From Flavobacteriaceae bacterium (lineage in GTDB: Bacteria; Bacteroidota; Bacteroidia; Flavobacteriales; Flavobacteriaceae), in the NCBI GenBank assembly GCA_965224465.1, contig OZ245049.1, positions 2,130,001 to 2,162,000 of the forward strand: DNA of 32,000 nt, given 5' to 3'. Below, piece by piece: positions 3,451 through 32,000 of the stretch; the first letter of the stretch is position 1, and each line of letters opens with the position of its first letter. Position numbers and translations under genes: made by a program. Under the pieces are notes generated by a model that was not told the origin of the DNA, ran no database searches, and saw only the letters and a list, made by a program, of their open reading frames with translations.

Positions 3451-3488
3451 TAAAACCCCGTAATAATTCAATCAGATTACTGATGCTG

Positions 3489-5676: not shown

Positions 5677-5778
5677 GGAATTATTGACACCAGAAATCAT
5701 ATTCACATTCTTATCATAAGAAGTATCACCCCCTGTATTTGTCCGTCTTTAAAGCCGTAGGTTTTGCCTTTTCTTTTT

Positions 5779-5940: not shown

Positions 5941-6071
5941 GGGAATAGTTCATTGTTATTCAGCGTAGTTCAGCGCAACAAAACGATAAAATCAGTAGAA
6001 CCTTTGGGTTCACTAATTTTAATCGCTAGTCGTTAATAAACTTTATTTTTTCAGAGTGTAAGATGAATTTC

Positions 6072-13090: not shown

Positions 13091-13663
13091 TTATAATATT
13101 CCTAATTTTTTTTTAAATTCTTCTGTTATGTAGTGTTCTAGTTCATCGAAAGTAAAGAATACTTCATATAATGAAAAATCATTATCAGAGTCTCTTAAAT
13201 TTTCCACTAACCCATTCGTGAATTTTATTCCTAATACTTTTTTTTGATTTTTAGTGATAATCCATGGCACTGGAATTTCACTAATGGTAAACTCATCAGG
13301 GTATTCTTTATTTATTCTTTTTTGAATTGTATTTACAAGTTTATTATCTGTATTATTAAAGAAATCTTTAATTGTTATCAATTCTGAATTATCAATATTA
13401 AAATTATATATGTAAGAATATCCTGTTAGATATGCTGTATATGTTTCGATGTCTAATTGAATACTAACAATATGCTTATTAAGGAAATGAATTGCATAAT
13501 TACTATTATTAAATGAATAGCAATTATTTGAACAACATTTAGTATTCAAATAATCAGTAAAATTATTAATGGTCTTTTTTAAACTAATTGAATCAATTAT
13601 GTTTGCTTTATTAATAAAGACAAACTCTTCAACTTCCTTTTTTATAATATAATTAAGAATATC

Positions 13664-16559: not shown

Positions 16560-16563
16560 GATT

Positions 16564-17232
16564 TTATTGTTTTAAAATTACTTCTCCATTTTCGTTAACG
16601 ATTCCTTTAAGTTCTATATTGTTTGTAGGATCATCATCTGCATCTTCTAATATTATTTTTAGTTCTTCACCTTCTTCTATATCTTTTACTTTTAAAAACA
16701 GTTGAGAATTAGAACTAATTTCAGCTTCTTTTATAGAGTTACCTTCTTCGTCTTTCCATTCTGTTTTTAGGATTTTAGGATTTTTTTCAATTTCTTGCTC
16801 TCTCTCTAATACTGTTGGTTCAACAGTATCTTCTTTAAAAGTTTCTCTCCAAGAGGCAGAATACACACCAAACGAGTTAGAATCTTCTACACCAGCACAG
16901 GTAATTTCTAAAGTTTCCGTCATTGGATCTGAGCCTGTAGAAGAAAAATTGGTTTTCCAATTTACAAGATGACAGTCATAGAAAAATATTTTTCTTGTTT
17001 TCCCTCCCACAATAACGGAATTAATATGTAATACTAGCTGTTTTGTTTGCCTGGAGGAAAAAGACCATTCCGTAAGATTTATGTCTTTTCTAGTTTCTAT
17101 AATTAGTTTAAAACCTAGAAATATAGGTGTCTGTGAGGGTCTGCCGTTAGGGTTTGCTCCTTGATTAAATCTGATCGTAAACAATAGTGCGTTTACTTCT
17201 TTTCCATCTATTATTAATGTTGCTTTTACCAT
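16564..17232 (-). CDS. tssD: T6SS-iii tube protein TssD (Hcp) with ~85-aa C-terminal extension type 1, copy 1
   Basis: 222 aa. Residues 1-~135 follow the Bacteroidetes TssD pattern (KATLIIDGKE, GRPSQ, IIETRKD, DPMTETLEI, SASW). The acidic beta-rich tail is not found in canonical ~130-aa TssD. Confidence 0.75.
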   Translation of the reverse strand: MVKATLIIDGKEVNALLFTIRFNQGANPNGRPSQTPIFLGFKLIIETRKDINLTEWSFSSRQTKQLVLHINSVIVGGKTRKIFFYDCHLVNWKTNFSSTGSDPMTETLEITCAGVEDSNSFGVYSASWRETFKEDTVEPTVLEREQEIEKNPKILKTEWKDEEGNSIKEAEISSNSQLFLKVKDIEEGEELKIILEDADDDPTNNIELKGIVNENGEVILKQ

Positions 17233-18578: not shown

Positions 18579-19952
18579 ATTTACCTTTATTTAGATTACC
18601 AGTAAATTTTTTTGTAAATTTTATATGAGTAATAAATGGTTTATAGCCTCTTAAATGTTGTAGTGTAAACCATGAAGAAAAAATGACTCTAGCACCTTTA
18701 AATAAGTTAAAGTATTTTTCTAAATCAGATTTATCTAATCCAAAGTGATCCCATAAAGTTACATCATACTTTATGTTGTATATATTATTTTCTAATTTAT
18801 ATTCTGTAACCTCAACTTTAGTAGCCCAAATATCATTTAATGCAATCCTTTGTCCTGCCAGTAAGTCTTCAAAAGAATCAAATTGTGGACGCATAAAGAA
18901 AATTTCTTTTCTTGTTGTTTTACTTATCTGAGTAGTTGTTTTTCCTTTTTTCCTACGATTTTTCAAATTGCTTGTTCCCATAAAGTCAATTTCATTTTCA
19001 ATTAGTCCTGACAGTTTCCCTTTGCTGTTTTTTAGTTTTTCAGCAATATAATCTTCTACTTCTTTGCAATAAGTAAGAGTAGATTGATGGTTTTTAATTG
19101 CATTTGTAAGTATATTAGATCGATAAACTCCTCCCTTATTTCTTTTAAATTTGGAAATCATATCTTTTATGTTAATTTCTAATTTCCCTTCAGCCATTAA
19201 GAGTACAACACCTTTTTCAAATTTTACGAAAAGCTCATTATCTGTGTAATTTTCGTTAAGATGTTTTATCTCTTCTCCAGCAGTATCTACAATAAGTTCT
19301 CAACTTTTAAGTACCATGGTACATTTTTGTAATCTATTTTATATATCTCTTCTTTACTATATAATGTTTTATCATATTTATCATCTTTATTGCTTAATGT
19401 AGAAGTAAAAAAAGTATTTGAAATATAATCTTTTTTTAGTTTATTTATAAAGTTATCAGGGTAAACTCTTCTAACTATATTTTCACCCTTTCCATATGTT
19501 AGGTCCTCTGCTATATCTGTTCCCTCATTATTTAATCCAGGCATCCTGAACATATCTATACAAATTGGTAAATTAAGTATATTTACTTCTACAAAAACAT
19601 CCTTATGAGGTAGGTTCCCTGCATAAGCGTATATCTTAAATTTTTCTTTCGGTTTCTCCGTTTTTATCTTAACTTTTAATGTATCACCGTCTAGTTCTCC
19701 TCCCGAAAAAAGCTTATACGATTTACAATGGTCATCTTTATCATAGGAGATAGCCCAGTTAATTTTTTTGGGATTGACATTATTATTTCTTAAAGTAGCA
19801 ACATAAATGTACTCTTTTTCTTTTTCTATATATTCTAACTTATTGTTAACTGTGTCAAAAGGCCCTTCTACTTTAACAACTACTCTTACAACCTTAGGCA
19901 GTTTAATCGTAGTTTTAGTATTTGGATACCCTTTTATTATTACTGTTGCCAT
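18559..19952 (-). pseudogene. DUF3289-like effector paralog split by a frameshift (track ORFs 19287..19952 and 18559..19197)
   Basis: The upstream ORF ends at TAG 19287-19289. The downstream frame is already open from 19299, 34 codons before its ATG. One indel within 19290-19299 would fuse them into a ~460-aa protein built like the 426-aa paralog. Confidence 0.7.
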
Positions 19953-20322: not shown

Positions 20323-21087
20323 TTATAATATTCCTAATTTTTTTTTAAATTCTTCTGTTATGTAGTGTTCTAGTTCATCGAAAGTAAAGAATACTTCATA
20401 TAATGAAAAATCATTATCAGAGTCTCTTAAATTTTCCACTAACCCATTCGTGAATTTTATTCCTAATACTTTTTTTTGATTTTTAGTGATAATCCATGGC
20501 ACTGGAATTTCACTAATAGTAAACTCATCAGGGTATTCTTTATTTATTCTTTTTTGAATTGTATTTACAAGTTTATTATCTGTATTATTAAAGAAATCTT
20601 TAATTGTTATCAATTCTGAATTATCAATATTAAAATTATATATGTAAGAATATCCTGTTAGATATGCTGTATATGTTTCGATGTCTAATTGAATACTAAC
20701 AATATGCTTATTAAGGAAATGAATTGCATAATTACTATTATTAAATGAATAGCAATTATTTGAACAACATTTAGTATTCAAATAATTAGTAAAATTATTA
20801 ATGGTCTTTTTTAAACTAATTGAATCAATTATGTTTGCTTTATTAATAAAGACAAACTCTTCAACTTCCTTTTTTATAATATAATTAAGAATATCAGATG
20901 ATTTTTTTGAATCAAAATTAAAAAACGGAAGATTATAATTACTGAGGATTTCTCCATCACATACTATTGTATCTTTTATAGAACTAACTACAATTTTTGT
21001 TTTATTAGTAGTATTAATTTGACTTTTACAAGAAGTGGTCAATAATACTACTAGCAGAAAAATAATATAATTATTTATCTTTTTCAT
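20323..21087 (-). CDS. lipoprotein immunity protein for the GH19-like effector (intact copy); possibly RsiV/DUF3298-like
   Basis: 254 aa. Signal peptide plus lipobox (LLTTSC). Sits 6 nt downstream of the effector. The central ETYTAYLTGYSYIYNFNIDNSELITIKDFF resembles the DUF3298 core; this is a low-certainty, by-eye call. Confidence 0.7.
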   Translation of the reverse strand: MKKINNYIIFLLVVLLTTSCKSQINTTNKTKIVVSSIKDTIVCDGEILSNYNLPFFNFDSKKSSDILNYIIKKEVEEFVFINKANIIDSISLKKTINNFTNYLNTKCCSNNCYSFNNSNYAIHFLNKHIVSIQLDIETYTAYLTGYSYIYNFNIDNSELITIKDFFNNTDNKLVNTIQKRINKEYPDEFTISEIPVPWIITKNQKKVLGIKFTNGLVENLRDSDNDFSLYEVFFTFDELEHYITEEFKKKLGIL

Positions 21088-21093
21088 CTTCGT

Positions 21094-22368
21094 TTATTTT
21101 AGTTGTATTGGTTTTAATTTTAAATCTGAAGTAATTTCAAAAGGGATAACATTAATACCTTTGACGGTTGTTTTAATAGGATTTTGTTTGCGTAATTCTT
21201 TTAATAGGATTTCTGCTTTTGGGTCTTTTAAATTTACAGTTACTGTTTTTCCTTTCACTTTAGTTTTAACCAATATATCTTTTGAAATAGCTAACAAGAT
21301 ATTTTCAATTTCATCTTTTTGCTCTTTTGTTCCAGTCTTATGAATCTCTTTGTAATGTTTGTAAACTTTAAAAGCTTCATCGTCTTTTGCTTTTAATGTA
21401 TAATCTTTTCTTTCTTCTATACCATTGGTTCCTCCATTAATTCTTTTGGACACTTTTTTTATACTATCTTTATTGGAATATTCATAAACCTTTCCATTGC
21501 CAATCATCCAATACCAAAGTGCAGATTGAGTAGCATAGATTGGATTTGTTTTGTCTTCTATTTTTTTTGAGTTTATAGCTTTAGTGAAATCTAAATTTAC
21601 TGAAGCATCATTAGAAAAAGGATGTTTTTTTCTGTAATCAGAAAAAATAGTGTAATTATTCTTTCCTGTTAATTGAATGATACCTCTACCTAGAAAATTG
21701 TAACCATCATCACCTCCATTATGTCCCAAGTCTTTTCTGTTTGAATATTTCCTATTGGCTATTTCTTTTTCATTGTGAGAATGAGATAATACTTGAACAT
21801 AAATAGTTTTCTCTTCGTTAAGGTAAATTTTTTCTTGATATTTCTTTTTTTTAGTATAACCATAAATATATGCTGGATTTAGCTTATCACAATTAGCATA
21901 TTTATCTTTTTTATCTTTATCCTTTTTTTTATCAGCTTCTTTTCTGTTATCTATAATTTTGAATTTATCTTTATATGTCTTAATATTAGCGTCAGTAAGT
22001 TTTATTAGTTCGCTCTCTGTATAGTATTTCTTAAGACTAGATGGCTTATAAGCCATATCTTCTTTTAGAGTATAAAACTTTTTACTTTCAACTAAACATT
22101 GAGAAATAAAATGAGCTTTACGTAAGCAAGTATCTAGTTTATAAATTTTTCTGTATTCATTGAGGTACTTTATGATTTTTTTCGCTAAAGTTTCGTTTAC
22201 ATTAGGTTCAATGTGTTTTATTTGCTCTATTGTTATTTCTTCTTTGCAGTAAGGGCAAGGTTCTGTTTTTTTTATGGTAAGAGGTGTTTCTTTGTACGGA
22301 AGTAACTCACCGTTGTAATATACCCTTGGTATATAAGTTATTGTTTTAAGCTTTTTCTTTTCAGCCAT
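21094..22368 (-). CDS. GH19/COG3179-type peptidoglycan hydrolase effector, copy 2
   Basis: 424 aa. Four aa differences from copy 1 (I60T, D71E, T75I, A274T). Confidence 0.75.
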   Translation of the reverse strand: MAEKKKLKTITYIPRVYYNGELLPYKETPLTIKKTEPCPYCKEEITIEQIKHIEPNVNETLAKKIIKYLNEYRKIYKLDTCLRKAHFISQCLVESKKFYTLKEDMAYKPSSLKKYYTESELIKLTDANIKTYKDKFKIIDNRKEADKKKDKDKKDKYANCDKLNPAYIYGYTKKKKYQEKIYLNEEKTIYVQVLSHSHNEKEIANRKYSNRKDLGHNGGDDGYNFLGRGIIQLTGKNNYTIFSDYRKKHPFSNDASVNLDFTKAINSKKIEDKTNPIYATQSALWYWMIGNGKVYEYSNKDSIKKVSKRINGGTNGIEERKDYTLKAKDDEAFKVYKHYKEIHKTGTKEQKDEIENILLAISKDILVKTKVKGKTVTVNLKDPKAEILLKELRKQNPIKTTVKGINVIPFEITSDLKLKPIQLK

Positions 22369-22372
22369 GATT

Positions 22373-23041
22373 TTATTGTTTTAAAATTACTTCTCCATTT
22401 TCGTTAACGATTCCTTTAAGTTCTATATTGTTTGTAGGATCATCATCTGCATCTTCTAATATTATTTTTAGTTCTTCACCTTCTTCTATATCTTTTACTT
22501 TTAAAAACAGTTGAGAATTAGAACTAATTTCAGCTTCTTTTATAGAGTTACCTTCTTCATCTTTCCATTCTGTTTTTAGGATTTTAGGATTTTTTTCAAT
22601 TTCTTGCTCTCTCTCTAATACTGTTGGCTCAACAGTATCTTCCTTAAAAGTTTCTCTCCAAGAGGCAGAATACACACCAAACGAGTTAGAATCTTCTACA
22701 CCAGCACAGGTAATTTCTAAAGTTTCCGTCATTGGATCTGAGCCTGTAGAAGAAAAATTGGTTTTCCAATTTACAAGATGACAGTCATAGAAAAATATTT
22801 TTCTTGTTTTCCCTCCCAGAATAACGGAATTAATATGTAATATTAGCTGTTTTGTTTGCCTGCAGGAAAAAGACCATTCCGTAAGGTTTATGTCTTTTCT
22901 AGTTTCTATAATTAATTTAAACCCCAGAAATACGGGGATTTGTGAAGGTCTGCCATTAGGATTTGCTCCTTGATTAAATCTGATCGTAAACAATAGTACG
23001 TTTACTTCTTTTCCATCTATTATTAATGTTGCTTTTACCAT
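22373..23041 (-). CDS. tssD: TssD (Hcp) with C-terminal extension type 1, copy 2
   Basis: 222 aa. Six aa differences from copy 1, all within the first 75 residues. Confidence 0.75.
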   Translation of the reverse strand: MVKATLIIDGKEVNVLLFTIRFNQGANPNGRPSQIPVFLGFKLIIETRKDINLTEWSFSCRQTKQLILHINSVILGGKTRKIFFYDCHLVNWKTNFSSTGSDPMTETLEITCAGVEDSNSFGVYSASWRETFKEDTVEPTVLEREQEIEKNPKILKTEWKDEEGNSIKEAEISSNSQLFLKVKDIEEGEELKIILEDADDDPTNNIELKGIVNENGEVILKQ

Positions 23042-23110: not shown

Positions 23111-23608
23111 CCATCATTGAGTATCCATTTAACCTACAATGCAGCATTACGTTTATTATCCAGACACATATATCTAGTAAGCAACTATCAAAATTACATA
23201 AAATAGTTATATACAATAATTATTCTTTGATTGTATTTTCCTGTTTTTTTTGATACCTAAAAACCGTTACCTCAATATGGGAAATGCTTCAAAAAAGATA
23301 AAATTTAGAACTAGACACTTGTTTTTAGCTCTTTTTAACAGATAAAATTACAAATCGTTTACTCACAATGCTGAATTCTCTACACCTATTATTGAAAAGA
23401 AAGGAAACAATTTATATGAGCCATGTTGCTTTTTAGACAACAATTTAGTTAAACTTGATCTTTTAAAGCAGTAGTAATTGAACCGTGGCAACCACAATAA
23501 AACCCAACTAAAATTAGAAATACACACTGTTTTTTACAAAACAAATGAAATTATTTTATTTTTATAAATGCCCCGAAAACGATTGAACAATGCAGATTAC
23601 TGATGCTG

Positions 23609-23644
23609 TCAGCCTTTCATATCAAATGAAAGGCTGTTTGTTTT
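23609..23644 (+). terminator. relict copy of the CAP-gene terminator (no + strand gene upstream)
   Basis: Same hairpin as 3489..3525, with the same flanks. It shows the uninterrupted target of the IS66 insertion. Confidence 0.5.
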
Positions 23645-23876
23645 AATACGGTTGCCTATTCATCACGCCTCATCTAAACAACGCCTTCACCTCTTTATAA
23701 TAGAACAACTTCCTTTAACACCAAATACATTTCTAGAACAAACTATTTATATCGGTTATTTTGGATTGTAATTAGCTTTATTGGCATCAGAAATCATATT
23801 CACATTCTTATCATAAGAAATATTGTTCCCTGTATTTGTACTGTCTTTAAAACCGTAGGTTTTGCCTTTTCTTTTT

Positions 23877-24062
23877 AAAAATGATACAGGAAAATGTATG
23901 TGTAGCCAGAGCATGTAAAAAACCATAACATTATTGCTGTATTTTTTTTGTTTTATAAAAGCCTGCTTAACCATTACGCTTAATGACTGTATGGCTTAAC
24001 GCTGACGACACACGATAAAATCGTGCGTTAGCGATGGCGGTTATTCGTGCGACAGCGAGGGC
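23877..24062. repeat. repeat R, copy 3 (hairpin degenerate)
   Basis: See copy 1. Followed at 24095-24175 by an S-like sequence. Confidence 0.8.
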
Positions 24063-24237: not shown

Positions 24238-25326
24238 CTAGTGAATATAAGAAAATTTAATAATTGTTTTCCCTTGAGAGTCTACTACTGCTGTTAACTG
24301 TTTATATTTATTATAAATATAAAAATGCTCTTTAATTACTTCGGGTGTTGGGTTTACAAATAAATCCGTTTCTTTTACTCCAATAAAATTTTCATCTTTA
24401 AAGATATAATCTGTTGAAATAATTTTATTAGGATATTCTTTGTTAACAGTTACATCTACTGTGTTTTTAATTTGTATCATTGTAAACGTTTCTTCGGTCC
24501 TAAATCGGGAGTATTTCTCATTAACACAACGCTTCTTATCATCATACATATATTCTATCACTTCTTTAGAAACACCCTCTTCGCGTTGCGTATATATTTT
24601 CTTAGTCCGTAACAAATTATCATAAAAATCATAAAATGATATAATTTGTAAACCATCTTTATTACACTGATTTACATTAAAAAGTTGCCCTTTGGCATCG
24701 AAAACATATTCTCTAGTAAAATTATATAGTTCATTAATTCCTGTATGTTTAGATCTTTTTAAATTGTCCTGCTCATATATATATTCAACCGATTTATATG
24801 GTTCGTTTTCAAAACCTGAATAAATTTTCCGTTTTAAAATTCTTCCTAGATCATCAAATTCTCTTTTTTCATTTGCGATTTCTGTAATTTGTCCGGTTCC
24901 ATTGAACTTTAATGCGCTTGGATACCCTAAATTATTTTTAGGAATTGTTTCTACAACTTCATTTGCTGTTGCACTTGTTCCAAATTCTTCTCCATTATTA
25001 ATAATTGTTCCTGCAGGGATTATTAGAAGATCTCGGTAACAATAATAACCGTTTTTCAAATTAAACATATAATCTCTGCCAGTGTTAATTGGCGCTAATT
25101 CTCCTGTTATATTGTACTTTTTTTCTATTCTTGTATCTAAATTCAATTCATTTTTCAATGTCCCTTTATAATTGTAAAATTTAACTTTATTTCCTTCTTT
25201 TTTATAGGCTAACTGTTTGTTGTTATAATATGCACTGTCTTTCATTTTTTGAGTAGCACTATCTTTAAGCCTTGTATTACAATTACTTAATTGAAGTGTA
25301 ATTAATATTAGAATTAGATTCCTCAT
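24238..25326 (-). CDS. large lipoprotein with repeated Y/G-rich beta-hairpin-like motifs (orphan immunity candidate)
   Basis: 362 aa. Signal peptide plus lipobox (LQLSNC). Preceded by a toxin-tail remnant and a copy of the hcp promoter region. Confidence 0.6.
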   Translation of the reverse strand: MRNLILILITLQLSNCNTRLKDSATQKMKDSAYYNNKQLAYKKEGNKVKFYNYKGTLKNELNLDTRIEKKYNITGELAPINTGRDYMFNLKNGYYCYRDLLIIPAGTIINNGEEFGTSATANEVVETIPKNNLGYPSALKFNGTGQITEIANEKREFDDLGRILKRKIYSGFENEPYKSVEYIYEQDNLKRSKHTGINELYNFTREYVFDAKGQLFNVNQCNKDGLQIISFYDFYDNLLRTKKIYTQREEGVSKEVIEYMYDDKKRCVNEKYSRFRTEETFTMIQIKNTVDVTVNKEYPNKIISTDYIFKDENFIGVKETDLFVNPTPEVIKEHFYIYNKYKQLTAVVDSQGKTIIKFSYIH

Positions 25327-25329
25327 GGA

Positions 25330-25395
25330 TTAGACATTCTTTTTTATTAAGTGAAGGGCTTTCTTTATTATATCCCATTGCCATTTAAAAAACGT
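25330..25395 (-). pseudogene. remnant of a metallopeptidase-toxin 3' end (TFFKWQWDIIKKALHLIKKNV*)
   Basis: Shares FFKWQW with the C-terminus of ORF 27131..27601. The stop is 3 nt before the ATG of the 362-aa lipoprotein. Confidence 0.6.
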
Positions 25396-25426
25396 TGCTT
25401 ATTGCTAATACCCCTATCCAACATTG

Positions 25427-25434
25427 CAAAGCTA
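25427..25434 (-). promoter_or_regulatory. third copy of the hcp -7 box TAGCTTTG, now upstream of an orphan immunity gene
   Basis: 25396-25745 is homologous to 17233-17615 and 23042-23415. Homology to the hcp 5' UTR stops about 30 nt downstream of the box. Confidence 0.45.
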
Positions 25435-25706
25435 TCATCATTGAGTATCCATTTAGCCTACAATACAGCATTACGTTTATTATTATTCAAATATACATAT
25501 ATCTACTAAGCAACTATCAAAGCTACATAAAATAGTTATATACAATAATTATTCTTTGATTGTATTTTCCTGTTTTTTTTGATACCTAAAAACAGTTACC
25601 TCAATTATGAGGCAATGCTTCAAAAAAGATAAAATTTAGAACTAGACACTTATTTTTAGCTGTTTTTAACAGATAAAATTACAAATCGTTTACTCACAAC
25701 GCTGAA

Positions 25707-25913
25707 TTATCTACACCGATTTATTGAAAAGGCAGGAAACAATTTGTACAGCTCATCATAATCTAAGTCTATACGTTTATCTAGTGGATATTCGCATGCC
25801 CGAATTAACTTCATGTAATGGTTTACCGTATTTAGAGAAACACCTACCCCACTCCCGATAGAACAGTTGCTTTCTCCATTTCTATGTAATGTAATATTTT
25901 GTTTTAAATCCAT
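25707..25913 (-). pseudogene. fragment encoding an IstA-like N-terminal helix-turn-helix, inside a ~180-bp insertion
   Basis: 68-aa ORF. GESNCSIGSGVGVSLNTVNHYMKLI resembles the HTH at the N-terminus of IS21 IstA. The block at about 25747-25925 is absent from the paralogous regions at about 17620 and about 23415. Confidence 0.3.
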
Positions 25914-26001
25914 CGAACCAAGTATATGAGCCCTGTTACTCTTTAGACAACAATTTAGTTAAACTTGATCTGTTAAAGTGGTACTAATTGAAACGTGGTA
26001 G

Positions 26002-26176
26002 CCAATAAGGAGAAGGAAAATGCATCTGTATCCAGAACATGTAAAAAACCACAACATTATTGCTGTGGTTTTATTGTTTCACAAAAGCCTGCTTAACCAT
26101 TACACTTAATAGCTGTGTGGCTTAACGTTGACAACACACGATAAAACACGTTAACGACGACGGTTATTCGTGCGCC
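26002..26176. repeat. repeat R, copy 4
   Basis: See copy 1. Has the best-formed hairpin: AAAACCACAAC-ATTATT-GCTGTGGTTTT. Confidence 0.8.
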
Positions 26177-26194
26177 AGCTGGGTTTTCTTTTTA

Positions 26195-26597
26195 TTATTG
26201 TTTATTTATAGACTCTTTATACTTATTAGTTAGCAAAATAAAATATTCTGAAACATCAAGAGGTAAATTAGAACCTGGCTCAAACACCCATACTGTTTGC
26301 TTATCTTTATAATCAAATATAAATTTAAAATCTATACCATCAATACACACTCCATATCCATATTTTTCATTTTTGCTACGAATAATATTAGGTGAGTTTA
26401 TAAGCTTAATATATTCATCCTTGTTTATATTTATAGAATTACCAAATGCATAAATTGTATCAGATTTTATTGTGTAAATCTCTTGTTCTCCTCTTAAAGA
26501 AATCAAATAGCATTTTATGCTCATTGGGTGAATATTTTGTTTTTTTTCTTGTGATTGGCAAGAGGATATAATTAAAAAAATGATTAAGAGTAGTGCT
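26195..26597 (-). CDS. small lipoprotein-like orphan immunity candidate lacking a canonical start codon
   Basis: The track ORF is 26195..26524 (109 aa). The same frame stays open upstream to 26597 and encodes FIKALLLIIFLIISSCQS, a signal peptide plus lipobox, with no ATG/GTG/TTG. Confidence 0.5.
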
Positions 26598-26660
26598 TTA
26601 ATAAATTAAGCTTCTGTCAGTTCTTAAAATGCCCCATTGCCATTTGAAAAAATTATTGAT
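26598..26660 (-). pseudogene. remnant of a metallopeptidase-toxin 3' end (NNFFKWQWGILRTDRSLIY*)
   Basis: 17 of 20 residues identical to the C-terminus of ORF 27131..27601. Overlaps the stop of the 158-aa lipoprotein gene. Confidence 0.7.
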
Positions 26661-27129
26661 CTTCATCTAATTTAGCAACAATATTCCATACCAAATCACT
26701 GTAATTTTTCATATAGCCAGGAAGTCCTCCTGAAGCTAAATAGAGAACGTCTTTATTATTATAATGTACAGAAATTGTCCAATCTGGAACATCTACATCA
26801 ACTGTTGTGTGTCCAATATTTATTTTATCCCCTATTTCGTTTGGGAAAGAATCTATCAATACTTTTGCTAATAAGTATTCTTGGTGTTTTATTTTTTTTA
26901 GTTTTCCATTAATAAAATAAGACAGGGTCTTATTTGTTAGCCTATATTTTCTAGTGAAAAAATATTCTTCAGCAGGATTTTGATTAAAATCTATATATAT
27001 GATTTTTTTTATATTTTCATCCACTTGTTTAGTCGCTATTGTTTCATTAATAATATTCCCTTTCTTTGTTTTCTGAGAATTACAAAAAGTGAATAGTAAT
27101 AAACTAATTATAAAAAATATATTCTTCAT
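26653..27129 (-). CDS. lipoprotein immunity candidate for the metallopeptidase toxin
   Basis: 158 aa. Signal peptide plus lipobox (LFTFC). The ATG is 1 nt after the toxin stop. Confidence 0.65.
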   Translation of the reverse strand: MKNIFFIISLLLFTFCNSQKTKKGNIINETIATKQVDENIKKIIYIDFNQNPAEEYFFTRKYRLTNKTLSYFINGKLKKIKHQEYLLAKVLIDSFPNEIGDKINIGHTTVDVDVPDWTISVHYNNKDVLYLASGGLPGYMKNYSDLVWNIVAKLDEDQ

Positions 27130-27130
27130 T

Positions 27131-27601
27131 TTAATAAGTAAAAATTAAACTTCTATCTGTTCTTAAAATATTCCATTGCCATTTGAAAAAATTATTCATT
27201 TTATCATTCGCTTCAAAAGGATTTCTTGTGTGAACTCCTTTTTGATTGACATAATCCATGATATTATCAGTGAACCCTTTATAAAAAACATGGGGTGATT
27301 TCATGGTGCTTCTAGCTGATGTCTCTTGAAAAACATGTGTTAATGATAATGAATGTGCACCTTCATGTAATACAGTTCTTTTAGCATTTAATGCGGTGCT
27401 ATAAATAACGTAGGAGTTACCCCAAGTAATACTGGTTAAAATACCTGTTGTATTAAAATTGAACTGAGCGGAGCATGAGCCTTGAACTCTAGTACCGCTA
27501 GTTTCAGCTCTAATTGTTGTGTAAAATAAATAGGTTCGCTTATTGGCATTTGTATTTATGCCAGAAACGCTTGGAGCATGTTTGCCAAATTTTTCATACA
27601 A
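27131..27601 (-). CDS. zinc metallopeptidase toxin domain (HExxHxxxxxH) without a delivery domain or a clear start
   Basis: VLHEGAHSLSLTHVF motif. The track start is a TTG. The frame is open upstream to 27709 with no ATG. Looks like a C-terminal toxin module detached from its carrier. Confidence 0.6.
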   Translation of the reverse strand: MYEKFGKHAPSVSGINTNANKRTYLFYTTIRAETSGTRVQGSCSAQFNFNTTGILTSITWGNSYVIYSTALNAKRTVLHEGAHSLSLTHVFQETSARSTMKSPHVFYKGFTDNIMDYVNQKGVHTRNPFEANDKMNNFFKWQWNILRTDRSLIFTY

Positions 27602-27739
27602 AGCAATTAAATCGGCTTTAAAGGAGTCTGAATTTCTCCTGCCAATATTTGAAGAGGAATTAATCGCTAGGTGCTCTAAGCCGTTTTTTCTTTCTTCATT
27701 ATTATTTATTTATCGATTCTTTATATTTATTAATTAGTA

Positions 27740-28252
27740 TTATTCTATAGCGTCCAATTTTCGTTGTATTTCTATATAGTCATCATAAAAAGATTGAATT
27801 TCTTTTGGGAATCCACTTTTTCGTGGTCCTAATTTCCAAAGGATATTTTTTCCATTTCGTAAATTAATACTAACCGAAACCCCTTCTTCATCTAATCCTT
27901 CATAATAATCAAAACTTTGTTTGCCTATCAAATATTTTTTAGGAATTTTTAAAAATATCACTCTACTAGATTCTCTATTCTTATATGATTTAATAATCTT
28001 TGTTTCCGATAATACATTTTTTTTATATACATGTTCAACAAGTGAAATACTATCTAAAAAAATAATTATGCTAACATATCTATACAAATTATAATTTACT
28101 GGCTCTTGTGTGCTGAACCGATTAATAACAATATTATCTATGCTTTCCTGTTGAACACTCATCCTTTCTAATAATATTGATGATTCGTTTTTGACCTTTT
28201 TTCCACAACCATAGAAAAAAAGTAGTAATATTAACAGTATTAAATTTTTCAT
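27740..28252 (-). CDS. lipoprotein immunity candidate, separated from its toxin fragment by IS30
   Basis: 170 aa. Signal peptide plus lipobox (LFFYGC). Confidence 0.6.
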   Translation of the reverse strand: MKNLILLILLLFFYGCGKKVKNESSILLERMSVQQESIDNIVINRFSTQEPVNYNLYRYVSIIIFLDSISLVEHVYKKNVLSETKIIKSYKNRESSRVIFLKIPKKYLIGKQSFDYYEGLDEEGVSVSINLRNGKNILWKLGPRKSGFPKEIQSFYDDYIEIQRKLDAIE

Positions 28253-28255
28253 AAG

Positions 28256-29379
28256 CTGAATTCAAGTCACAAACGCAACTTTTAGTTAAATAATAATTGT
28301 TCCATTACAAATATAGGGTTTTCGTATTTATGTCTCTTCCTAGGTCTGTTATTTAATTTTGTTTCTACCTCTTTGATTCTTTGATCTGTTAGGTTTGTAA
28401 AGTCACTTCCTTTGGCAAAATATTGTCTAATCAAACCATTTAAATTTTCGTTAGATCCTCTTTCCCAAGAGTGATATGGATGCGCAAAAAAGTAATCAAT
28501 ACATAAATTTTCTGCAACCTGCTCATGGCCTGCAAATTCTTTTCCATTATCAGCTGTTATAGTATGTAGATAAGGCTTCCAGTCTTCTAATATTTCATTG
28601 ATAGCTTTAGTGACAACAACTGCTTCTTTAGAGCTTACTTTTTTCATTTTAAGCATTCCAGAAGCTCTATCGTTTACGGTAAGTATGGCTTGATTATGGT
28701 TTTTACCTATGATTAAATCGACCTCTAAATCTCCAAATCGATTTCTTTGTTCAACAACTTCAGGGCGTTGTTCTATACTAATACGATTCTTTATAACCCC
28801 TCTAGAATCCTTTGATGAGCCACGTTTTCTATATCTCCTTCCCTGTCTGCGAAGGTGTGTATGTAAATCACCATCATTCCTCTTGTCTTCCCTAATATGC
28901 TGATATATACGCTCAATAGACACCGTTTCTTTACCTTGTTTTTTTAGGACACCAACTACTTGCTCAGGACTATAATCGTCTCGCAATAACAACTCTATTG
29001 CTTGTTGAATATCTTCTGTAAAGCGTTTTCTTTTAGGCTTTTCTTTATGACGTTTAGCATACTTTTTTTGGGCTAATTCATGCTTGTAAACTCCATTTCT
29101 TTTGTCTGAATTACGCTTAATCTCTTTGCTAATAACAGACTTGTCTTTTCCTATAGCAGCTGCTATCTCAACCTGTTTATAACCTTGTTTTAACATGCAA
29201 CAAATTGTGTATCTTTGCGCTTGGGTGATGTGTTTCATACAACTTCTTTTTTCGAGATTTGAGACCGTAAGATACATATCCATCAAGACAAGAAAGGTAG
29301 GTTTTCCTACTTTTCTGTTTTGAAAATATAACCATCATAGAATCAAATCGAAAAGTTGCGTTTATTAGTTGAATTTAAG
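28256..29379 (-). mobile_element. IS30-family insertion sequence
   Basis: IRs CTGAATTCAAGTCACAAACGCAACTTTT and (reverse complement) CTTAAATTCAACTAATAAACGCAACTTTT. The TSD is too short to verify. Boundaries are good to about 3 nt. Confidence 0.8.
28282..29238 (-). CDS. IS30 family transposase
   Basis: MKHITQAQRYTICCMLKQGYKQVEIAAAIGKDKSVISKEIKRN is a typical IS30 N-terminal HTH, and a DDE core follows. The track start at 29286 is probably too far upstream. Confidence 0.9.
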   Translation of the reverse strand: MKHITQAQRYTICCMLKQGYKQVEIAAAIGKDKSVISKEIKRNSDKRNGVYKHELAQKKYAKRHKEKPKRKRFTEDIQQAIELLLRDDYSPEQVVGVLKKQGKETVSIERIYQHIREDKRNDGDLHTHLRRQGRRYRKRGSSKDSRGVIKNRISIEQRPEVVEQRNRFGDLEVDLIIGKNHNQAILTVNDRASGMLKMKKVSSKEAVVVTKAINEILEDWKPYLHTITADNGKEFAGHEQVAENLCIDYFFAHPYHSWERGSNENLNGLIRQYFAKGSDFTNLTDQRIKEVETKLNNRPRKRHKYENPIFVMEQLLFN

Positions 29380-29391
29380 TAACTTAATTAT

Positions 29392-29610
29392 TTAATAGCT
29401 CGTTATAAGACTTTCATCGTTTCTCATAATATCCCATTGCCATTTGAATAAGGAATACATTTTTCCTTTAAATTTATTATCTCCAGATGAATAATAGCCA
29501 CCACTTGGAGCACTAGCACCAATCTGCCAATCATAATCCATATAATTGTCAGTATAACCACGGTGAAATATATGAGGTGATGATATCCTTAATCTTCCTC
29601 TTGCTTCCAT
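29392..29610 (-). pseudogene. C-terminal fragment of a metallopeptidase toxin paralog
   Basis: SPHIFHRGYTDNYMDY...FKWQWDIMRNDESLITSY aligns with residues ~100-156 of ORF 27131..27601. The HExxH region upstream lies inside repeat R5 and is degenerate (LHAGYTY). Confidence 0.7.
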
Positions 29611-29790
29611 AAAAATGATAAGGAGGAGGGAAATGTATGTATATCCAGCATGTAAAAAATCACAACATTATTGCTGTGGTTTTATTGTTTCACAAAAGCC
29701 TGCTTAACTCACGCTTAATGACTGTGTGGCTTAACGTTAACGACACACGATAAAACACGTTAGCGATGGCGGTTAATCGTGCGACAGCGG
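29611..29790. repeat. repeat R, copy 5
   Basis: See copy 1. Contiguous and in frame with the toxin fragment 29392..29610. Confidence 0.8.
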
Positions 29791-29802
29791 CATTACAAAA
29801 CG

Positions 29803-30228
29803 TCATTTCGGTTTTTTAAAATTTATCCCTGTTGTGAAAAATATTTCAGCCATCTTATTATTTATTTTAAAAGATTTTGTTTTACACACACTATCTTTTC
29901 TAACCCCAAACATTCTAACTTCAGAAAAGGTTTCAATTTCTGAAATTCTATATTTTAGACTATCATTTAAATTTAATTGATAAGTATTATTTGCAAATAA
30001 ATCTTCATCTAATTCAATATTTAAATAATTATACTTGTCTTTTGAAAAATAAATACTTTTAATGTTTATTTTTTTTTGAGGAGTATCTTCAGTTACTTCA
30101 TAAATAGAAGCGTCAAAGCTTTCAATACTTGTCGCTGTTGGAAATCCAAAAATAGTTATCTTATTATTTAAATTAGCATTATTACAAGTTGTAATTGTTT
30201 TTTTACAAGAAATTAAGGCAATAGCTGT
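29803..30228 (-). pseudogene. lipoprotein (immunity-like) gene truncated at its 5' end by IS21
   Basis: Open frame ..TAIALISCKKTITTCNNANL...TTGINFKKPK*, translated by hand and absent from the ORF track because it has no start codon. The lipobox is retained; the signal-peptide start is removed at the IS21 boundary. Confidence 0.6.
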
Positions 30229-30300
30229 TTATATTAACCCAAAAGTATACCACTATTTCAGTCGAAAAGTATACCAGTAAATTTAAATAAAAAAACTGGT

Positions 30301-30348
30301 TTCACAAGACATTAAAAAAAGGGTACCCTTTTTTTAATGTCTTGTGAA
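30301..30348 (-). terminator. perfect 24-bp-arm palindrome downstream of istB (inside IS21)
   Basis: TTCACAAGACATTAAAAAAAGGGT / ACCCTTTTTTTAATGTCTTGTGAA, centred on GGTACC. Confidence 0.55.
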
Positions 30349-30376
30349 GTTGAGTTTTGGATGTTTTTTTTCATTT

Positions 30377-31146
30377 TTAGTTTGTTTTTAGGGCATTCAT
30401 TTCTTTGGTCTCTTTTAGGCGATAAGAGGCTCCATTCATATTTATTAAATGAGCCTTATGTGTGAGACGATCTACTAAAGCGGCAGTTAATATAGGGTCA
30501 CCAAATATTTCTTCCCAATGATCAAAGCCTAAGTTAGTGGTTATAATCGTTGATTTTCGACCTGTTCTTAATGAAAGGTGATTAAAGAGTAGTTCTGCGC
30601 CACTTCTGTCAAAAGAAACGTAGCCAAATTCGTCACATATCACCAAATCGTACTTTTCAAAACGGAGCTCTACTTGCCTTAATGTTCTGTTTGAGTGTGA
30701 CTCCCTCAGTAAGGTTAACAAACGGTGTACTGTTATAAAAAGCACCTTATATCCTTGCATACAAGCTTTTAATCCAAGTCCTGTTGCTATGTGTGTTTTT
30801 CCTGTTCCTGGATTCCCTGCTAGTATTATGTTTTGACCTGATTTTATAAAATCGGGCGTTCTAATATTGGAAGTTTGTCTTTTGCATCTATGGGTAGTTG
30901 TTCTAAATTCAACTCATTTAAATACATTTTTGAAGGAAAACCAGCCTGTCGTATCTGGCTTTTTTTCCTGTTTTCTAACCTTCTTTCATATTCTCTTTCC
31001 ATTAATTGCAGTAAAAATTCTTCATAAGAAGCTCCTGTTTCAGTAGACTCAATGGCGAGTTGTTCAAAGTCTCTTCCAAATATTGGTAAACGAAGATTTT
31101 TACTGTATTGTGCTATTTGTATATGTGTGTTGCTTGTCGTTATCAT
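30377..31146 (-). pseudogene. istB: IS21 helper ATPase IstB, split by a frameshift
   Basis: The N-terminal 100-aa ORF (30844..31146) ends at ...LERPIL*. The Walker A segment FIKSGQNIILAGNPGTGKTHIA lies in the frame of the downstream ORF (30377..30760) and upstream of its ATG. The frame change is near 30845-30860. Confidence 0.75.
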
Positions 31147-32000
31147 GATGATAGGTTTTGATTCATTAAACTGGTTAGTTCATATAAATGACTTTTTGCA
31201 AAATTGTAGGTTTGGTTTTTTGTAAACGCGATCACTTTTTCATCTTCGGTCTTATTCCCTAGTAATGCTTTTATTTTTTCCAAAGTAAGAGCTCCTGAGC
31301 TGCCTTTAGACAGGCGCTCTACAGTGGTTTCTAAATGCTCATTATCTATTTGATATTTCTTGCAAAAGATAAGTAACTCAATAAATTCTTTTGGTTTTTC
31401 TGTGAAAAATTGCACAAATATTTCTTTTAAATAGTCACTATTTAATAAAGCAACACTGTCACGGAGTGCTCCTGGTTTTCGCTTAAAAGTATCTAGATAA
31501 TGCTCAATATTAACAAGCCATTTATGCACTTCATAACTACGAAGATGATTAGCTACATGTTTGTTTACATGGTATATTTCTAATTTTAAACTGTATATTT
31601 TTACAGAAACAAATTCTCCTACTAAGCTGTCGGGTACTGAATATCGATTTTGTAAAAAACCAATCGTAGCGTATTTATCTACTCGATATTCCTTTGTATA
31701 ACAGCACTTAAGTGGATACGGTTGTTTGTGTAAAAAAGGCTTCTCTAAAGAGAAAAGCTCCATCGCTGTTTTTTTTGTAAGCTGTTGTTTCGTGTTATTT
31801 AAGGTGTTTAATGTTTCTAATAAATGAGACTGTGCAGACTCTATGGAGTCAAATTTAGTATCAAAACTAAAAGCTTTTCGCCTTATGTATTCGACACTTC
31901 TCTCCACATGTCCTTTTTCATTTCCTTTACGAACGTTGCAAAAACGATGTCTAAAATTATAATGCCCCTTTAAATCTAACAATGCTTGTGTAGGTTCTTT
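31143..32000 (-). CDS. istA: IS21 family transposase IstA (C-terminal part; 5' end outside the window)
   Basis: The frame is open to the window edge (the track start is a TTG). KGNEKGHVERSVEYIRRKAF is typical of the IstA DDE region. ATGA overlap with istB. Confidence 0.85.
   Translation of the reverse strand, partial: KEPTQALLDLKGHYNFRHRFCNVRKGNEKGHVERSVEYIRRKAFSFDTKFDSIESAQSHLLETLNTLNNTKQQLTKKTAMELFSLEKPFLHKQPYPLKCCYTKEYRVDKYATIGFLQNRYSVPDSLVGEFVSVKIYSLKLEIYHVNKHVANHLRSYEVHKWLVNIEHYLDTFKRKPGALRDSVALLNSDYLKEIFVQFFTEKPKEFIELLIFCKKYQIDNEHLETTVERLSKGSSGALTLEKIKALLGNKTEDEKVIAFTKNQTYNFAKSHLYELTSLMNQNLSS

What the first reader, a model, noticed from the sequence alone, without database searches (positions are those of the whole stretch)
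24238..30228. Array of orphan metallopeptidase-toxin tails, each followed by a different lipoprotein: an immunity-gene collection resembling acquired interbacterial defence clusters
Reading the - strand from 30228 to 24238, the array has five units. Unit 1 is a lipoprotein truncated by IS21 (29803..30228), followed by R5. Unit 2 is a 72-aa toxin tail (29392..29610), IS30, and a 170-aa lipoprotein. Unit 3 is a 156-aa HExxH toxin domain with no start codon or carrier (27131..27601) and a 158-aa lipoprotein. Unit 4 is a 20-aa tail remnant (NNFFKWQWGILRTDRSLIY*) followed by a ~130-aa lipoprotein whose start codon is missing, then R4 and a copy of the hcp promoter region. Unit 5 is a 21-aa tail remnant (TFFKWQWDII...) and a 362-aa lipoprotein. 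The toxin parts are homologous to one another and progressively 5'-deleted. The downstream lipoproteins are unrelated to one another. No delivery domain (Hcp, VgrG, PAAR, Rhs) is attached to any of these toxins. The pattern fits accumulation of immunity genes that retain short 3' effector stubs, as in the orphan-immunity (AID/rAID) islands of gut Bacteroidales. No recombinase gene is visible in this window.
Basis: partly seen in the sequence, partly recalled or inferred. Interest (0 to 1): 0.8.

Follow-up and report, generated by a model that had tools for sequence, protein, structure and literature searches.

The report
Orphan immunity genes with toxin stubs
This stretch is the decayed end of a bacterial type VI secretion weapon island: the metallopeptidase toxin genes are cut down to short 3' stubs while the lipoprotein genes that neutralise them are kept, a known kind of defensive leftover array seen here with a toxin family that has no curated Pfam or NCBIfam model.

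Summary
Four FKWQW-ending toxin tails lie on the minus strand at the stated coordinates (0 expected by chance). Each precedes a lipoprotein gene.

Full-length relatives (434-600 aa) have a conserved N-terminal part and a metzincin-like HExxHxxxxxH domain. They sit directly after Hcp, DUF4280/PAAR-like or VgrG-DUF4123 genes in Flavobacteriia, Bacteroides, Chitinophaga, Acinetobacter, Gilliamella and Moraxella.

Homologs of the unit 2, 3, 4 and 5 lipoproteins sit immediately downstream of such full-length toxins. The unit 5 stub matches the tail of its own cognate toxin subtype. The orphan-immunity reading therefore holds.

Corrections:
- The unit 2-4 lipoproteins are probably remote homologs, not unrelated.
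- The truncations are not progressive (72, about 178, 20 and 21 codons).
- This is not an AID/rAID cluster. The window has no recombinase and no GC skew, and R repeats flank whole Hcp modules rather than single genes.

The best fit is sequential effector displacement plus deletion and IS insertion inside a T6SS(iii) Hcp-effector island, as described for Vibrio cholerae.

One point is unexplained. In five independent lineages the short stubs begin 0-21 nt before the FKWQW codons.

Verdict: new member of a known kind; interest about 0.4.

The parts
30229..32000 (-). IS21-family element, cut by the window end. It holds istA (31143-31982) and istB in two pieces (30844-31146, 30377-30760). Its end truncates the unit 1 gene.
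   Evidence: Pfam IstB_IS21 and Mu-transpos_C_2. The terminal repeats are read directly. The element is absent from the related contig L004.
29803..30228 (-). Unit 1: 5'-truncated lipoprotein gene (141 codons, lipobox LISC). Its cognate toxin is unknown.
   Evidence: Translation. L004 holds a 32% identical homolog at the same position upstream of R5. No relatives were found in the loci or in the metagenome scan.
29612..29790 (-). R5: inter-module repeat with a terminator-like hairpin. Its distal end is fused to the middle of a toxin gene.
29392..29610 (-). Unit 2 toxin remnant: 72 C-terminal codons of the 'long-loop' subtype, with no HExxH motif left.
   Evidence: It is identical in L004.
28263..29379 (-). 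IS30-type insertion (transposase 28282-29286) that separates the unit 2 stub from its lipoprotein gene.
   Evidence: Pfam HTH_38 and rve. In L004 the stub and the lipoprotein gene are 11 nt apart and there is no IS.
27740..28252 (-). Unit 2 lipoprotein, 170 aa (lipobox FYGC): orphan immunity candidate of family f170.
   Evidence: There are 29 family representatives. The family HMM hits the gene directly after a full-length 514-aa toxin in Capnocytophaga catalasegens L013, E 3.7e-10. It also follows an orphan tail in L003.
27131..27672 (-). Unit 3 toxin remnant: about 178 C-terminal codons with HEGAHSLSLTH (27335-27367), NIMDY and the FFKWQW tail. About 300 N-terminal codons and the start codon are missing.
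26653..27129 (-). Unit 3 lipoprotein, 158 aa (lipobox FTFC): immunity candidate of family f158.
   Evidence: Homologs follow a full 475-aa toxin after TssD in Patiriisocius marinistellae L034, and a 251-aa toxin in L001. AF2 model pLDDT is 77, with no meaningful PDB fold match.
26598..26663 (-). Unit 4 stub: the last 20 codons of a toxin (NNFFKWQWGILRTDRSLIY*). It begins at the stop codon of the 158-aa gene.
   Evidence: (D12, 87% identical to the unit 3 tail).
26195..26605 (-). Unit 4 lipoprotein, family f109. The ATG and the first codons were removed by a 16-nt deletion; the gene is intact (137 aa) in L004.
   Evidence: Homologs lie directly after full-length toxins in L002, L005, L006 and L007.
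25999..26179 (-). R4: inter-module repeat with a terminator hairpin.
25407..25994 (-). Partial copy of the region upstream of hcp, including the small IS21-IstA-like ORF at 25707-25913. It ends about 35 nt before the point where the hcp ATG would be.
   Evidence: (D4, D10, D11).
25330..25398 (-). Unit 5 stub: the last 21 codons of a toxin of a distant subtype (TFFKWQWDIIKKALHLIKKNV*).
   Evidence: It matches the tails TTFFKWQWDIIKKDPHIKEINV* of the 541-553-aa toxins encoded upstream of lipo362 homologs.
24238..25326 (-). Unit 5 lipoprotein, 362 aa (signal peptide, Cys16): orphan immunity candidate.
   Evidence: Homologs (37-68% identity) lie immediately downstream of TssD-toxin (L029, L032) or PAAR-toxin (L033).
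23873..24053 (-). R3: inter-module repeat that closes the unit 5 module. It is followed by a copy of the array-terminal region and the next intact hcp module (hcp 22373-23041).

Best explanation
Window 24238-30228 holds the remains of at least three Hcp-effector-immunity modules of a T6SS(iii)-type island; unit 1, cut by IS21, is the tail of one, and units 2-4 and unit 5 are the other two. The whole 32-kb window is that island. The effectors belonged to one family of about 450-570-aa periplasm-acting, metzincin-like zinc peptidases that end in FFKWQW..R.D.SL.

The module between R5 and R4 first grew by sequential displacement. A new effector-immunity pair replaced most of the resident effector but left its 3' end and its immunity gene behind. 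That gives the series tail72-lipo170, toxin remnant-lipo158, stub-lipo109. Later a deletion fused R5 to the middle of the newest toxin, removing hcp and the toxin 5' part.

In the module between R4 and R3, a deletion running from the hcp leader to codon -21 of the toxin left the hcp upstream region directly in front of the stub and lipo362.

IS30, IS21 and a 16-nt deletion are recent damage.

The retained lipoproteins are periplasm-facing immunity proteins. They would protect the cell against relatives that still fire these toxin variants.

Shown:
- the anatomy;
- the homology of the tails;
- the pairing of each lipoprotein family with full-length toxins elsewhere;
- the delivery contexts.

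Inferred:
- peptidase activity and periplasmic target;
- protective function;
- the order of events.
For: - Four homologous tails.
- The window is an Hcp island. It holds TssD genes, DUF3289 and other effectors, lipoprotein genes and five IS families.
- Full-length toxins have H, E, H, H and M-D-Y invariant in 17 divergent sequences. They give weak reprolysin, pappalysin and ulilysin matches at the zinc motif.
- These toxins lie directly after TssD (L002, L029, L032, L034), fused to TssD (L034), after or fused to DUF4280, or after VgrG-DUF4123.
- Cognate pairs exist for units 2-5.
- The unit 5 stub matches the tail of its own toxin subtype.
- The unit 5 junction lies inside the hcp leader.
- The close relative L004 (96-97% identical) keeps the same truncated-toxin and intact-lipoprotein series without IS30 or IS21, and with an intact unit 4 gene.
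- Similar orphan series occur in L003, L006, L034, L035, and Moraxella L022 and L027.
- The displacement model, including retained effector 3' ends, is published for V. cholerae (PMC5361080).
Against: - No experiment shows toxicity or protection.
- Two of the five lipoprotein genes are damaged (unit 1 by IS21; unit 4 has lost its start), so selection for retention is not uniform.
- pN/pS between the window and L004 (0.08, 0.24 and 0.41 for the lipoproteins, 0.65 for the toxin remnant) rests on 4-11 differences per gene and is not significant.
- Whether an intact cognate toxin exists elsewhere in the 5.24-Mb genome could not be checked. Only the remnant from that contig appeared in the homolog search.
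- The AF2 model of the toxin failed (pLDDT 39), so the metzincin fold is not confirmed.
- Displacement by random illegitimate joining does not explain why the short stubs begin at the same place in five lineages.
Confidence: 0.7

Rival explanations
1. Plain decay. A tandem set of paralogous effector-immunity modules is being eroded by IS elements and deletions. The lipoprotein genes are simply the parts not yet destroyed, with no selection for an orphan-immunity function.
For: The region is IS-rich, with IS21, IS30, IS256, IS66 and ISL3 in 32 kb. Unit 1 is truncated and unit 4 has lost its start. The pN/pS values are underpowered. Units 2-4 are probably one superfamily.
Against: All four toxin copies are truncated from the 5' side, while three lipoprotein ORFs are full length. 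The same asymmetry recurs in unrelated genomes (L003, L035, L022, L027). The deletion boundaries fall exactly at ORF ends and just before the tail. lipo170 and lipo158 differ from L004 mostly at synonymous sites.
Confidence: 0.15
2. Integron-like or rAID-like capture. A site-specific (tyrosine) recombinase encoded outside the window inserts immunity cassettes, using R or the toxin tail as the attachment site.
For: Five R copies lie at module ends. The stub boundary is recurrent. rAID-1 clusters have intergenic repeats and orphan immunity genes (10.1101/471110).
Against: The 32 kb holds no recombinase. R flanks whole hcp modules, carries a terminator hairpin, and does not separate units 2, 3 and 4. 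R was found only in this lineage. GC is uniform. The difference between the window and L004 is what homologous R x R recombination would give. The same stub boundary occurs in Moraxella, where there is no R.
Confidence: 0.05
3. Tail-anchored cassette exchange. The conserved 60-70-nt toxin tail is the homology anchor for RecA-type recombination, so that [tail + immunity gene] units are duplicated, captured and stacked. This rival addresses the mechanism of array growth, not the orphan-immunity reading.
For: Stub homology begins 0-21 nt before FKWQW in five independent places, including a 95% identical tandem [tail + immunity] duplication in M. bovis L027. The tail is the most conserved DNA block, with some excess identity at synonymous sites.
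Against: Amino-acid conservation alone explains most of the DNA conservation. A first stub still needs an illegitimate join. Longer remnants (72, 105 and 178 codons) and arrays without stubs (Acinetobacter L020) also exist. A minimal expression element would give the same boundary.
Confidence: 0.2

Closest known systems
Orphan immunity gene arrays formed by sequential displacement of T6SS effectors in Vibrio cholerae (Kirchberger et al. 2017, PMC5361080)
   Same: The array lies inside the T6SS effector locus. Old immunity genes are kept while the effector is replaced. An effector 3' end is shifted back together with its immunity gene. The orphan genes have cognate pairs in other strains. No integrase is involved.
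   Different: The setting here is a Bacteroidota-type Hcp(TssD)-linked cargo module rather than vgrG/tap clusters. The last effector has itself been deleted, so whole modules are effector-less. The array is heavily invaded by IS elements. The short stubs end at one recurrent boundary.
AID-1/AID-2 and recombinase-associated rAID-1 clusters of gut Bacteroidales (Ross et al. 2019; preprint 10.1101/471110; PMC12247911)
   Same: Co-oriented arrays of short orphan immunity genes without a working cognate effector in the cluster. The presumed role is defence against T6SS attack by neighbours.
   Different: The window has no XerD-like recombinase, no GC skew, no repeat between each ORF and no mobile-element genes. 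The array is part of the cell's own effector island.
Orphan Rhs/CdiA C-terminal toxin-immunity cassettes (C-terminal displacement; cited in PMC5361080)
   Same: Strings of displaced toxin 3' fragments, each with its immunity gene, downstream of a main toxin locus.
   Different: In those systems the conserved recombination junction lies N-terminal to a variable toxin domain, and the orphan keeps a complete toxin domain. Here the conserved block is the extreme C-terminus, and most remnants have lost the catalytic domain.
Predicted VgrG/DUF4123-linked 'M12 family' zinc metalloprotease toxins of Acinetobacter guillouiae and A. bereziniae (PMC6838775), and the Tpe1/VgrG2b-C-terminal T6SS metallopeptidase effectors (PMC6899460)
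   Same: All are T6SS cargo or fused zinc-peptidase effectors with envelope-located immunity proteins. The A. bereziniae locus L020 (VgrG, DUF4123, 434-aa toxin, lipoproteins) is a full-length member of the family found here and fits the island type listed in that paper.
   Different: No sequence match to the solved VgrG2b C-terminal domain. The motif here is metzincin-like, HExxHxxxxxH. No Pfam or NCBIfam model covers the family.

Membership tests
T6SS orphan-immunity array (effector displacement type) | Lies within or contiguous with a T6SS effector locus | tested here: met
   TssD genes are at 22373-23041 and 16564-17232, with a truncated copy at 9342-9722. Effector and lipoprotein genes lie on the same strand throughout the window.
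T6SS orphan-immunity array (effector displacement type) | The orphan genes are homologs of immunity genes that sit next to intact effectors elsewhere | tested here: met
   Unit 2: L013. Unit 3: L034 and L001. Unit 4: L002, L005, L006, L007. Unit 5: L029, L032, L033. Unit 1: no partner found.
T6SS orphan-immunity array (effector displacement type) | The cognate effector is absent or truncated in the locus | tested here: met
   Only remnants of 72, about 178, 20 and 21 codons are present. No other HExxH/FKWQW ORF occurs in the window.
T6SS orphan-immunity array (effector displacement type) | No intact cognate effector anywhere in the genome | not testable with these tools
   Only 32 kb is available. 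The homolog search returned only the remnant from the 5.24-Mb contig. Look-ups of the genome record failed.
T6SS orphan-immunity array (effector displacement type) | The orphan genes protect against the matching toxin | not testable with these tools
   This needs co-expression or competition experiments.
rAID-1 (recombinase-associated acquired interbacterial defence) | A XerD-like tyrosine recombinase gene at the 5' end of the array | tested here: not met
   None of the ORFs scanned with Pfam has an integrase domain, and the remaining ORFs of 80 aa or more read as effector, lipoprotein or transposase genes by eye; only IS transposases were found. Beyond position 32000 this could not be tested.
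rAID-1 (recombinase-associated acquired interbacterial defence) | GC content skewed relative to the surroundings | tested here: not met
   GC is 0.28-0.34 in the array, the same as the rest of the window.
rAID-1 (recombinase-associated acquired interbacterial defence) | A conserved repeat motif in the intergenic spaces between the ORFs | tested here: not met
   R occurs at module ends only (29612-29790, 25999-26179, 23873-24053). Units 2, 3 and 4 are separated by toxin remnants, not by R.
rAID-1 (recombinase-associated acquired interbacterial defence) | Two or more co-oriented short genes encoding immunity-like proteins | tested here: met
   Five co-oriented lipoprotein genes.
Metzincin zinc metallopeptidases (toxin domain) | Extended zinc motif HExxHxxGxxH/D | tested here: met
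   HEGAHSLSLTH is present. H, E, H and the third H are invariant in 17 divergent homologs. The Gly position is Ser, Gly or Asn.
Metzincin zinc metallopeptidases (toxin domain) | Met-turn and metzincin fold | tested here: inconclusive
   M-D-Y is invariant 19 residues after the motif, but the AF2 model is unusable (pLDDT 39).
Metzincin zinc metallopeptidases (toxin domain) | Match to a curated family model (M12, M10, M43) | tested here: not met
   Reprolysin_3/4/5 and Peptidase_M10 hits are all below the gathering scores. PDB profile hits to pappalysin, ulilysin and ADAMTS have E 0.004-0.2 and cover the zinc motif only.
Tpe1 / VgrG2b C-terminal T6SS metallopeptidase effectors | Sequence similarity to the solved VgrG2b C-terminal domain | tested here: not met
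   That chain was not hit with the family profile among the 60 of 61 matches shown (E up to 1), nor with the Acinetobacter member (E up to 10).
One immunity superfamily for units 2-4 | Profile-level similarity beyond the signal peptides | tested here: inconclusive
   hhalign on mature regions gives f170-f109 E 4e-5, f170-f158 E 3e-4 and f158-f109 E 1e-3. Scores are 27-36, against a column-shuffle mean of 12 and a maximum of 22. The f170 HMM hits only immunity-position ORFs among 657 ORFs. hhalign probabilities are only 22-70%. An earlier value of 92.7% was driven by the signal peptides.

The most novel reading that the evidence does not exclude
The extreme 3' end of these toxin genes (TTYAARTGGCARTGG plus about 50 nt) works as a cassette junction. 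Units of [tail + immunity gene] are duplicated, captured and stacked by recombination at this block. This would happen in both Bacteroidota and Moraxellaceae, and would give a recombinase-free, integron-like way of collecting immunity genes whose anchor lies at the C-terminal end of the toxin rather than before the toxin domain.
Probability: 0.2. Interest if true: 0.65.

Novelty: new member of a known kind. Interest (0 to 1): 0.4.

Why it matters
Orphan immunity arrays are best documented in Vibrio cholerae and gut Bacteroidales. This example shows the same outcome in a Flavobacteriia-type Hcp-linked effector island.

It also links four lipoprotein families to a widespread T6SS metzincin-like effector family that has no curated Pfam or NCBIfam model. 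The family is found after Hcp, PAAR-like or VgrG carriers in two phyla, which gives concrete toxin-immunity pairs to test.

The recurrent stub boundary, if it reflects a mechanism, would show how immunity genes are stacked without a dedicated recombinase.

Tried and rejected
- **AF2 of the toxin.** An 8-sequence alignment gave pLDDT 39, so no fold search was made on it.
- **Fold search of lipo158.** The model (pLDDT 77) gave no meaningful PDB match. The top hits, DUF600/EsaG immunity proteins, have TM about 0.25.
- **First hhalign result.** The 92.7% probability for f158 versus f170 collapsed to 4% once signal peptides were removed, and was discarded.
- **R repeats.** Rfam gave nothing for the window or for R. 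R shows no covariation. R was not found in the other loci or in JGI metagenomes.
- **Unit 1.** The metagenome scan for relatives found none.
- **Identifying the genome.** Exact look-ups failed or carried no names. The plasmid search with the IS elements was empty. The genome scan did not return the window's own genome.
- **Promoters.** Sigma-70 and Bacteroidetes-type consensus scans were not above chance. The single TTTG-N22-TAtaTTTG match before unit 5 is not used as evidence.
- **Selection.** pN/pS against L004 is underpowered.
- **P0041 and P0059.** These multi-repeat hits to lipo170 were not used; P0041 is a repeat protein (its lectin-like look is by eye, no domain scan was run) and P0059 was not inspected.
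- **Tpe1/VgrG2b membership.** Considered and rejected.

Full report
**Observation**

On the minus strand, the motif FKWQW (TTYAARTGGCARTGG) occurs four times, at 29448, 27187, 26648 and 25389. None is expected in shuffled sequence. The four C-terminal segments align, with K-W-Q-W, L and I invariant.

The gene order read by the first stage is correct:
- IS21 end
- truncated lipoprotein (29803-30228)
- R5
- 72-aa tail (29392-29610)
- IS30 (28263-29379)
- 170-aa lipoprotein (27740-28252)
- HExxH remnant (ORF 27131-27601, homology to about 27672)
- 158-aa lipoprotein (26653-27129)
- 20-aa stub, starting at that gene's stop codon
- a lipoprotein without a start codon (26195-26605)
- R4
- a copy of the hcp upstream region
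- 21-aa stub (25330-25398)
- 362-aa lipoprotein (24238-25326)
- R3

Signal peptides with a lipobox cysteine are read directly from the translations.

**Surroundings**

The whole window is a low-GC (about 0.30) Bacteroidota-type T6SS effector island on the minus strand. It holds:
- three TssD/Hcp genes, one of them truncated (Pfam PF17642);
- DUF3289 effectors, a deacetylase-like effector and a duplicated 424-aa effector;
- lipoprotein or BNR immunity-like genes;
- IS21, IS30, IS256 (two copies), IS66 and ISL3 elements.

A repeat of about 180 nt, R, occurs five times and always at a module end. It contains a terminator-like hairpin, has no Rfam match and shows no covariation.

**What the toxin is**

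The closest database relatives are few, and five of the seven are themselves truncated ORFs.

A scan of representative genomes found 24 loci. Full-length proteins are 434-600 aa. They have a conserved N-terminal part (KKFLVHFRRP..Y.GEYGFDWLRDEYIYP) and a C-terminal domain in which H, E, H, H of HExxHxxxxxH and M-D-Y are invariant in 17 divergent sequences.

No Pfam or NCBIfam model covers the family. Only sub-threshold reprolysin and matrixin hits appear, plus zinc-motif matches to pappalysin, ulilysin and ADAMTS in the PDB. The solved VgrG2b C-terminal (Tpe family) domain is not matched. The AF2 model was unusable.

I read it as a metzincin-like zinc peptidase (inference from the motif). Because its partners are lipoproteins, it probably acts in the periplasm (inference).

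**Delivery context**

The toxin gene lies in these positions:
- directly after an Hcp with a C-terminal extension (L002, L029, L032, L034);
- fused to Hcp (L034, 694 aa);
- after a DUF4280 PAAR-like gene (Sinomicrobium, Bacteroides sp. 224, Aequorivita);
- fused to DUF4280 (Aquimarina);
- after a PAAR gene (L033);
- after VgrG-DUF4123 (Acinetobacter) or near vgrG genes (Gilliamella), with Moraxella members on short contigs that lack upstream context.

The Acinetobacter locus fits the 'M12 family' toxin island listed in PMC6838775. So the absence of a carrier in the window reflects deletion. It is not a property of the toxins.

**The lipoproteins are the cognate partners**

| Unit | Lipoprotein family | Where homologs follow a toxin |
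|---|---|---|
| 4 | f109 | full-length toxins in L002, L005, L006, L007 |
| 3 | f158 | a 475-aa toxin after TssD in Patiriisocius marinistellae, and a 251-aa toxin in L001 |
| 2 | f170 | a 514-aa toxin of the same long-loop subtype as the 72-aa tail in Capnocytophaga catalasegens (HMM E 3.7e-10), and an orphan tail in L003 |
| 5 | lipo362 | 541-553-aa toxins after TssD or PAAR |

The toxins upstream of the unit 5 homologs end in TTFFKWQWDIIKKDPHIKEINV*. This is the same variant tail as the unit 5 stub, ATFFKWQWDIIKKALHLIKKNV*.

No partner was found for unit 1.

**Are the lipoproteins unrelated?**

Pairwise comparison finds no similarity among the window lipoproteins.

With deeper family alignments and signal peptides removed, hhalign gives co-linear matches over the C-terminal half:
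- f170 versus f109: E 4e-5
- f170 versus f158: E 3e-4
- f158 versus f109: E 1e-3
- scores of 27-36, against a column-shuffled mean of 12 and a maximum of 22

The f170 HMM hits only immunity-position ORFs of other families among 657 ORFs. An earlier 92.7% probability was a signal-peptide artefact.

I conclude that the unit 2-4 lipoproteins are probably one old superfamily that diversified together with the toxin. Unit 5 and unit 1 are different. The AF2 model of lipo158 is good (pLDDT 77) but has no meaningful PDB neighbour.

**How the array arose**

Units 2, 3 and 4 lie between R5 and R4 with no R between them. They therefore form one module: tail72-lipo170, toxin remnant-lipo158, stub-lipo109. 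This is the pattern expected from sequential displacement, in which each incoming effector-immunity pair replaces most of the resident effector and pushes its 3' end and its immunity gene downstream. The model is published for V. cholerae (PMC5361080).

R5 is fused to the middle of the newest toxin, so hcp and the 5' part of that toxin were lost later.

In the next module the hcp upstream region is intact up to about 35 nt before the hcp start. It then joins the last 21 codons of the toxin.

A contig from a close relative, L004 (96-97% identical), has the same R5-to-R4 series. It differs as follows:
- IS30 and IS21 are absent.
- The unit 4 gene is intact.
- It carries a diverged allele of the unit 1 gene upstream of R5.
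- R4 joins directly to the array-terminal region next to the CAP gene.

Homologous R x R recombination would interconvert the two arrangements. This points to R as a substrate for module gain and loss, not as a site for a dedicated recombinase.

**Comparison with AID/rAID**

rAID-1 is defined by a 5' XerD-like recombinase, co-oriented short ORFs, skewed GC and intergenic repeat motifs (10.1101/471110 and PMC12247911). Only the co-oriented ORFs are present here.

The function is probably the same: a store of immunity genes without the weapon. The structure and origin are those of an in-locus displacement array.

**Unexplained**

Short stubs begin 0-21 nt upstream of the FKWQW codons in five independent places:
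- window unit 4;
- window unit 5;
- a metagenomic array, L003;
- Moraxella boevrei;
- M. bovis, where [tail + immunity gene] is tandemly duplicated at 95% identity.

In three of these the preceding immunity ORF ends at or within the first bases of the stub. The tail is the most conserved DNA block of the gene, with a modest excess of identity at synonymous sites.

Two explanations remain open. The tail may be a homology anchor for cassette exchange. Alternatively, the stub may be the minimal upstream element the immunity gene needs, with remnants trimmed down to it. I could not separate them. Longer remnants and arrays without stubs also exist.

**Selection**

Between the window and L004, pN/pS is 0.08 for lipo170, 0.24 for lipo158, 0.41 for lipo109 and 0.65 for the toxin remnant. 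These rest on 4-11 differences per gene, so they are only a hint.

**Verdict**

The finding is real and its core reading is right. The details about unrelated lipoproteins, progressive deletion and rAID likeness need correcting. It is a new member of a known kind of system. Its extra value lies in defining a widespread T6SS metallopeptidase-immunity family that lacks a curated model, and in the recurrent stub boundary.

Noticed in passing
window 22373-23041 and 16564-17232; L005 8634-9320, L008 8612-9307, L035 4034-4726: The window Hcp (222 aa) has a C-terminal extension of about 80 aa beyond the TssD domain. The same extension is found at the C-terminus of DUF4280/PAAR-like proteins that precede FKWQW toxins in other genera. 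It may be a shared carrier-to-effector adaptor domain.
   Followed up: partly
window 8059-9339 and 19287-19952; L029 3183-4817; L032 1929-3554: Effectors with unrelated toxin domains (DUF3289 in the window, the metallopeptidase in L029 and L032) share the N-terminal leader MA(T/Q)..IKGY(P/S)NTKTTIK.P.V when they follow Hcp. This may be an Hcp-loading signal.
   Followed up: no
L034 1014-3098 (Patiriisocius marinistellae): A 694-aa protein fuses an N-terminal TssD domain to a toxin of this family, making it an 'evolved Hcp'. The same locus also holds a toxin fragment before another lipoprotein gene, and an intact TssD-toxin-immunity module.
   Followed up: partly
window 25707-25913: A 68-aa ORF inside the hcp-upstream copy looks by eye like the HTH N-terminus of an IS21 IstA transposase, with no Pfam hit. 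The two intact hcp upstream regions lack about 170 nt of it.
   Followed up: no
window 23490-24053 versus 5535-5955, 3473-3524 and 2313-2673: The array-terminal region next to the CAP-domain gene is duplicated inside the array, between unit 5 and the next hcp. In L004, R4 joins directly to that terminal region, so about 20 kb (window 5.9-26.0 kb) is present in one strain and absent in the other.
   Followed up: partly
window 15285-17232 and 20323-23041; 13091-15016: The module of hcp, a 424-aa effector and a 254-aa lipoprotein is duplicated nearly identically. In one copy the lipoprotein gene is split by an IS256-type element. The effector has GH19-like motifs by eye (GRGIIQLTGKNNY, SALWYWM) but no Pfam or NCBIfam hit.
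   Followed up: no
L035 7070-9099 (Aequorivita MAG); L003 717-2182: Members of the f170 and f158 lipoprotein families are neighbours in three unrelated arrays: window/L004, L003 and L035/L036. In L003 the junction piece is 81% identical in DNA to the window, while the f170 genes are only about 30% identical in protein. This suggests mosaic or en bloc transfer of array pieces.
   Followed up: partly
window 2911-3450: The CAP-domain lipoprotein that flanks the array has two paralogs more than 90% identical on the same 5.24-Mb contig. The genome may hold further copies of this array boundary.
   Followed up: no
P0021, P0029, P0040 and L001 1768-2301: Several database gene calls for f158 and f170 lipoproteins start inside the out-of-frame toxin tail (for example MAMEHNENRSKFNFKLL......FLNGNGKIL...). 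The public annotations therefore extend these immunity genes into the toxin 3' end.
   Followed up: no
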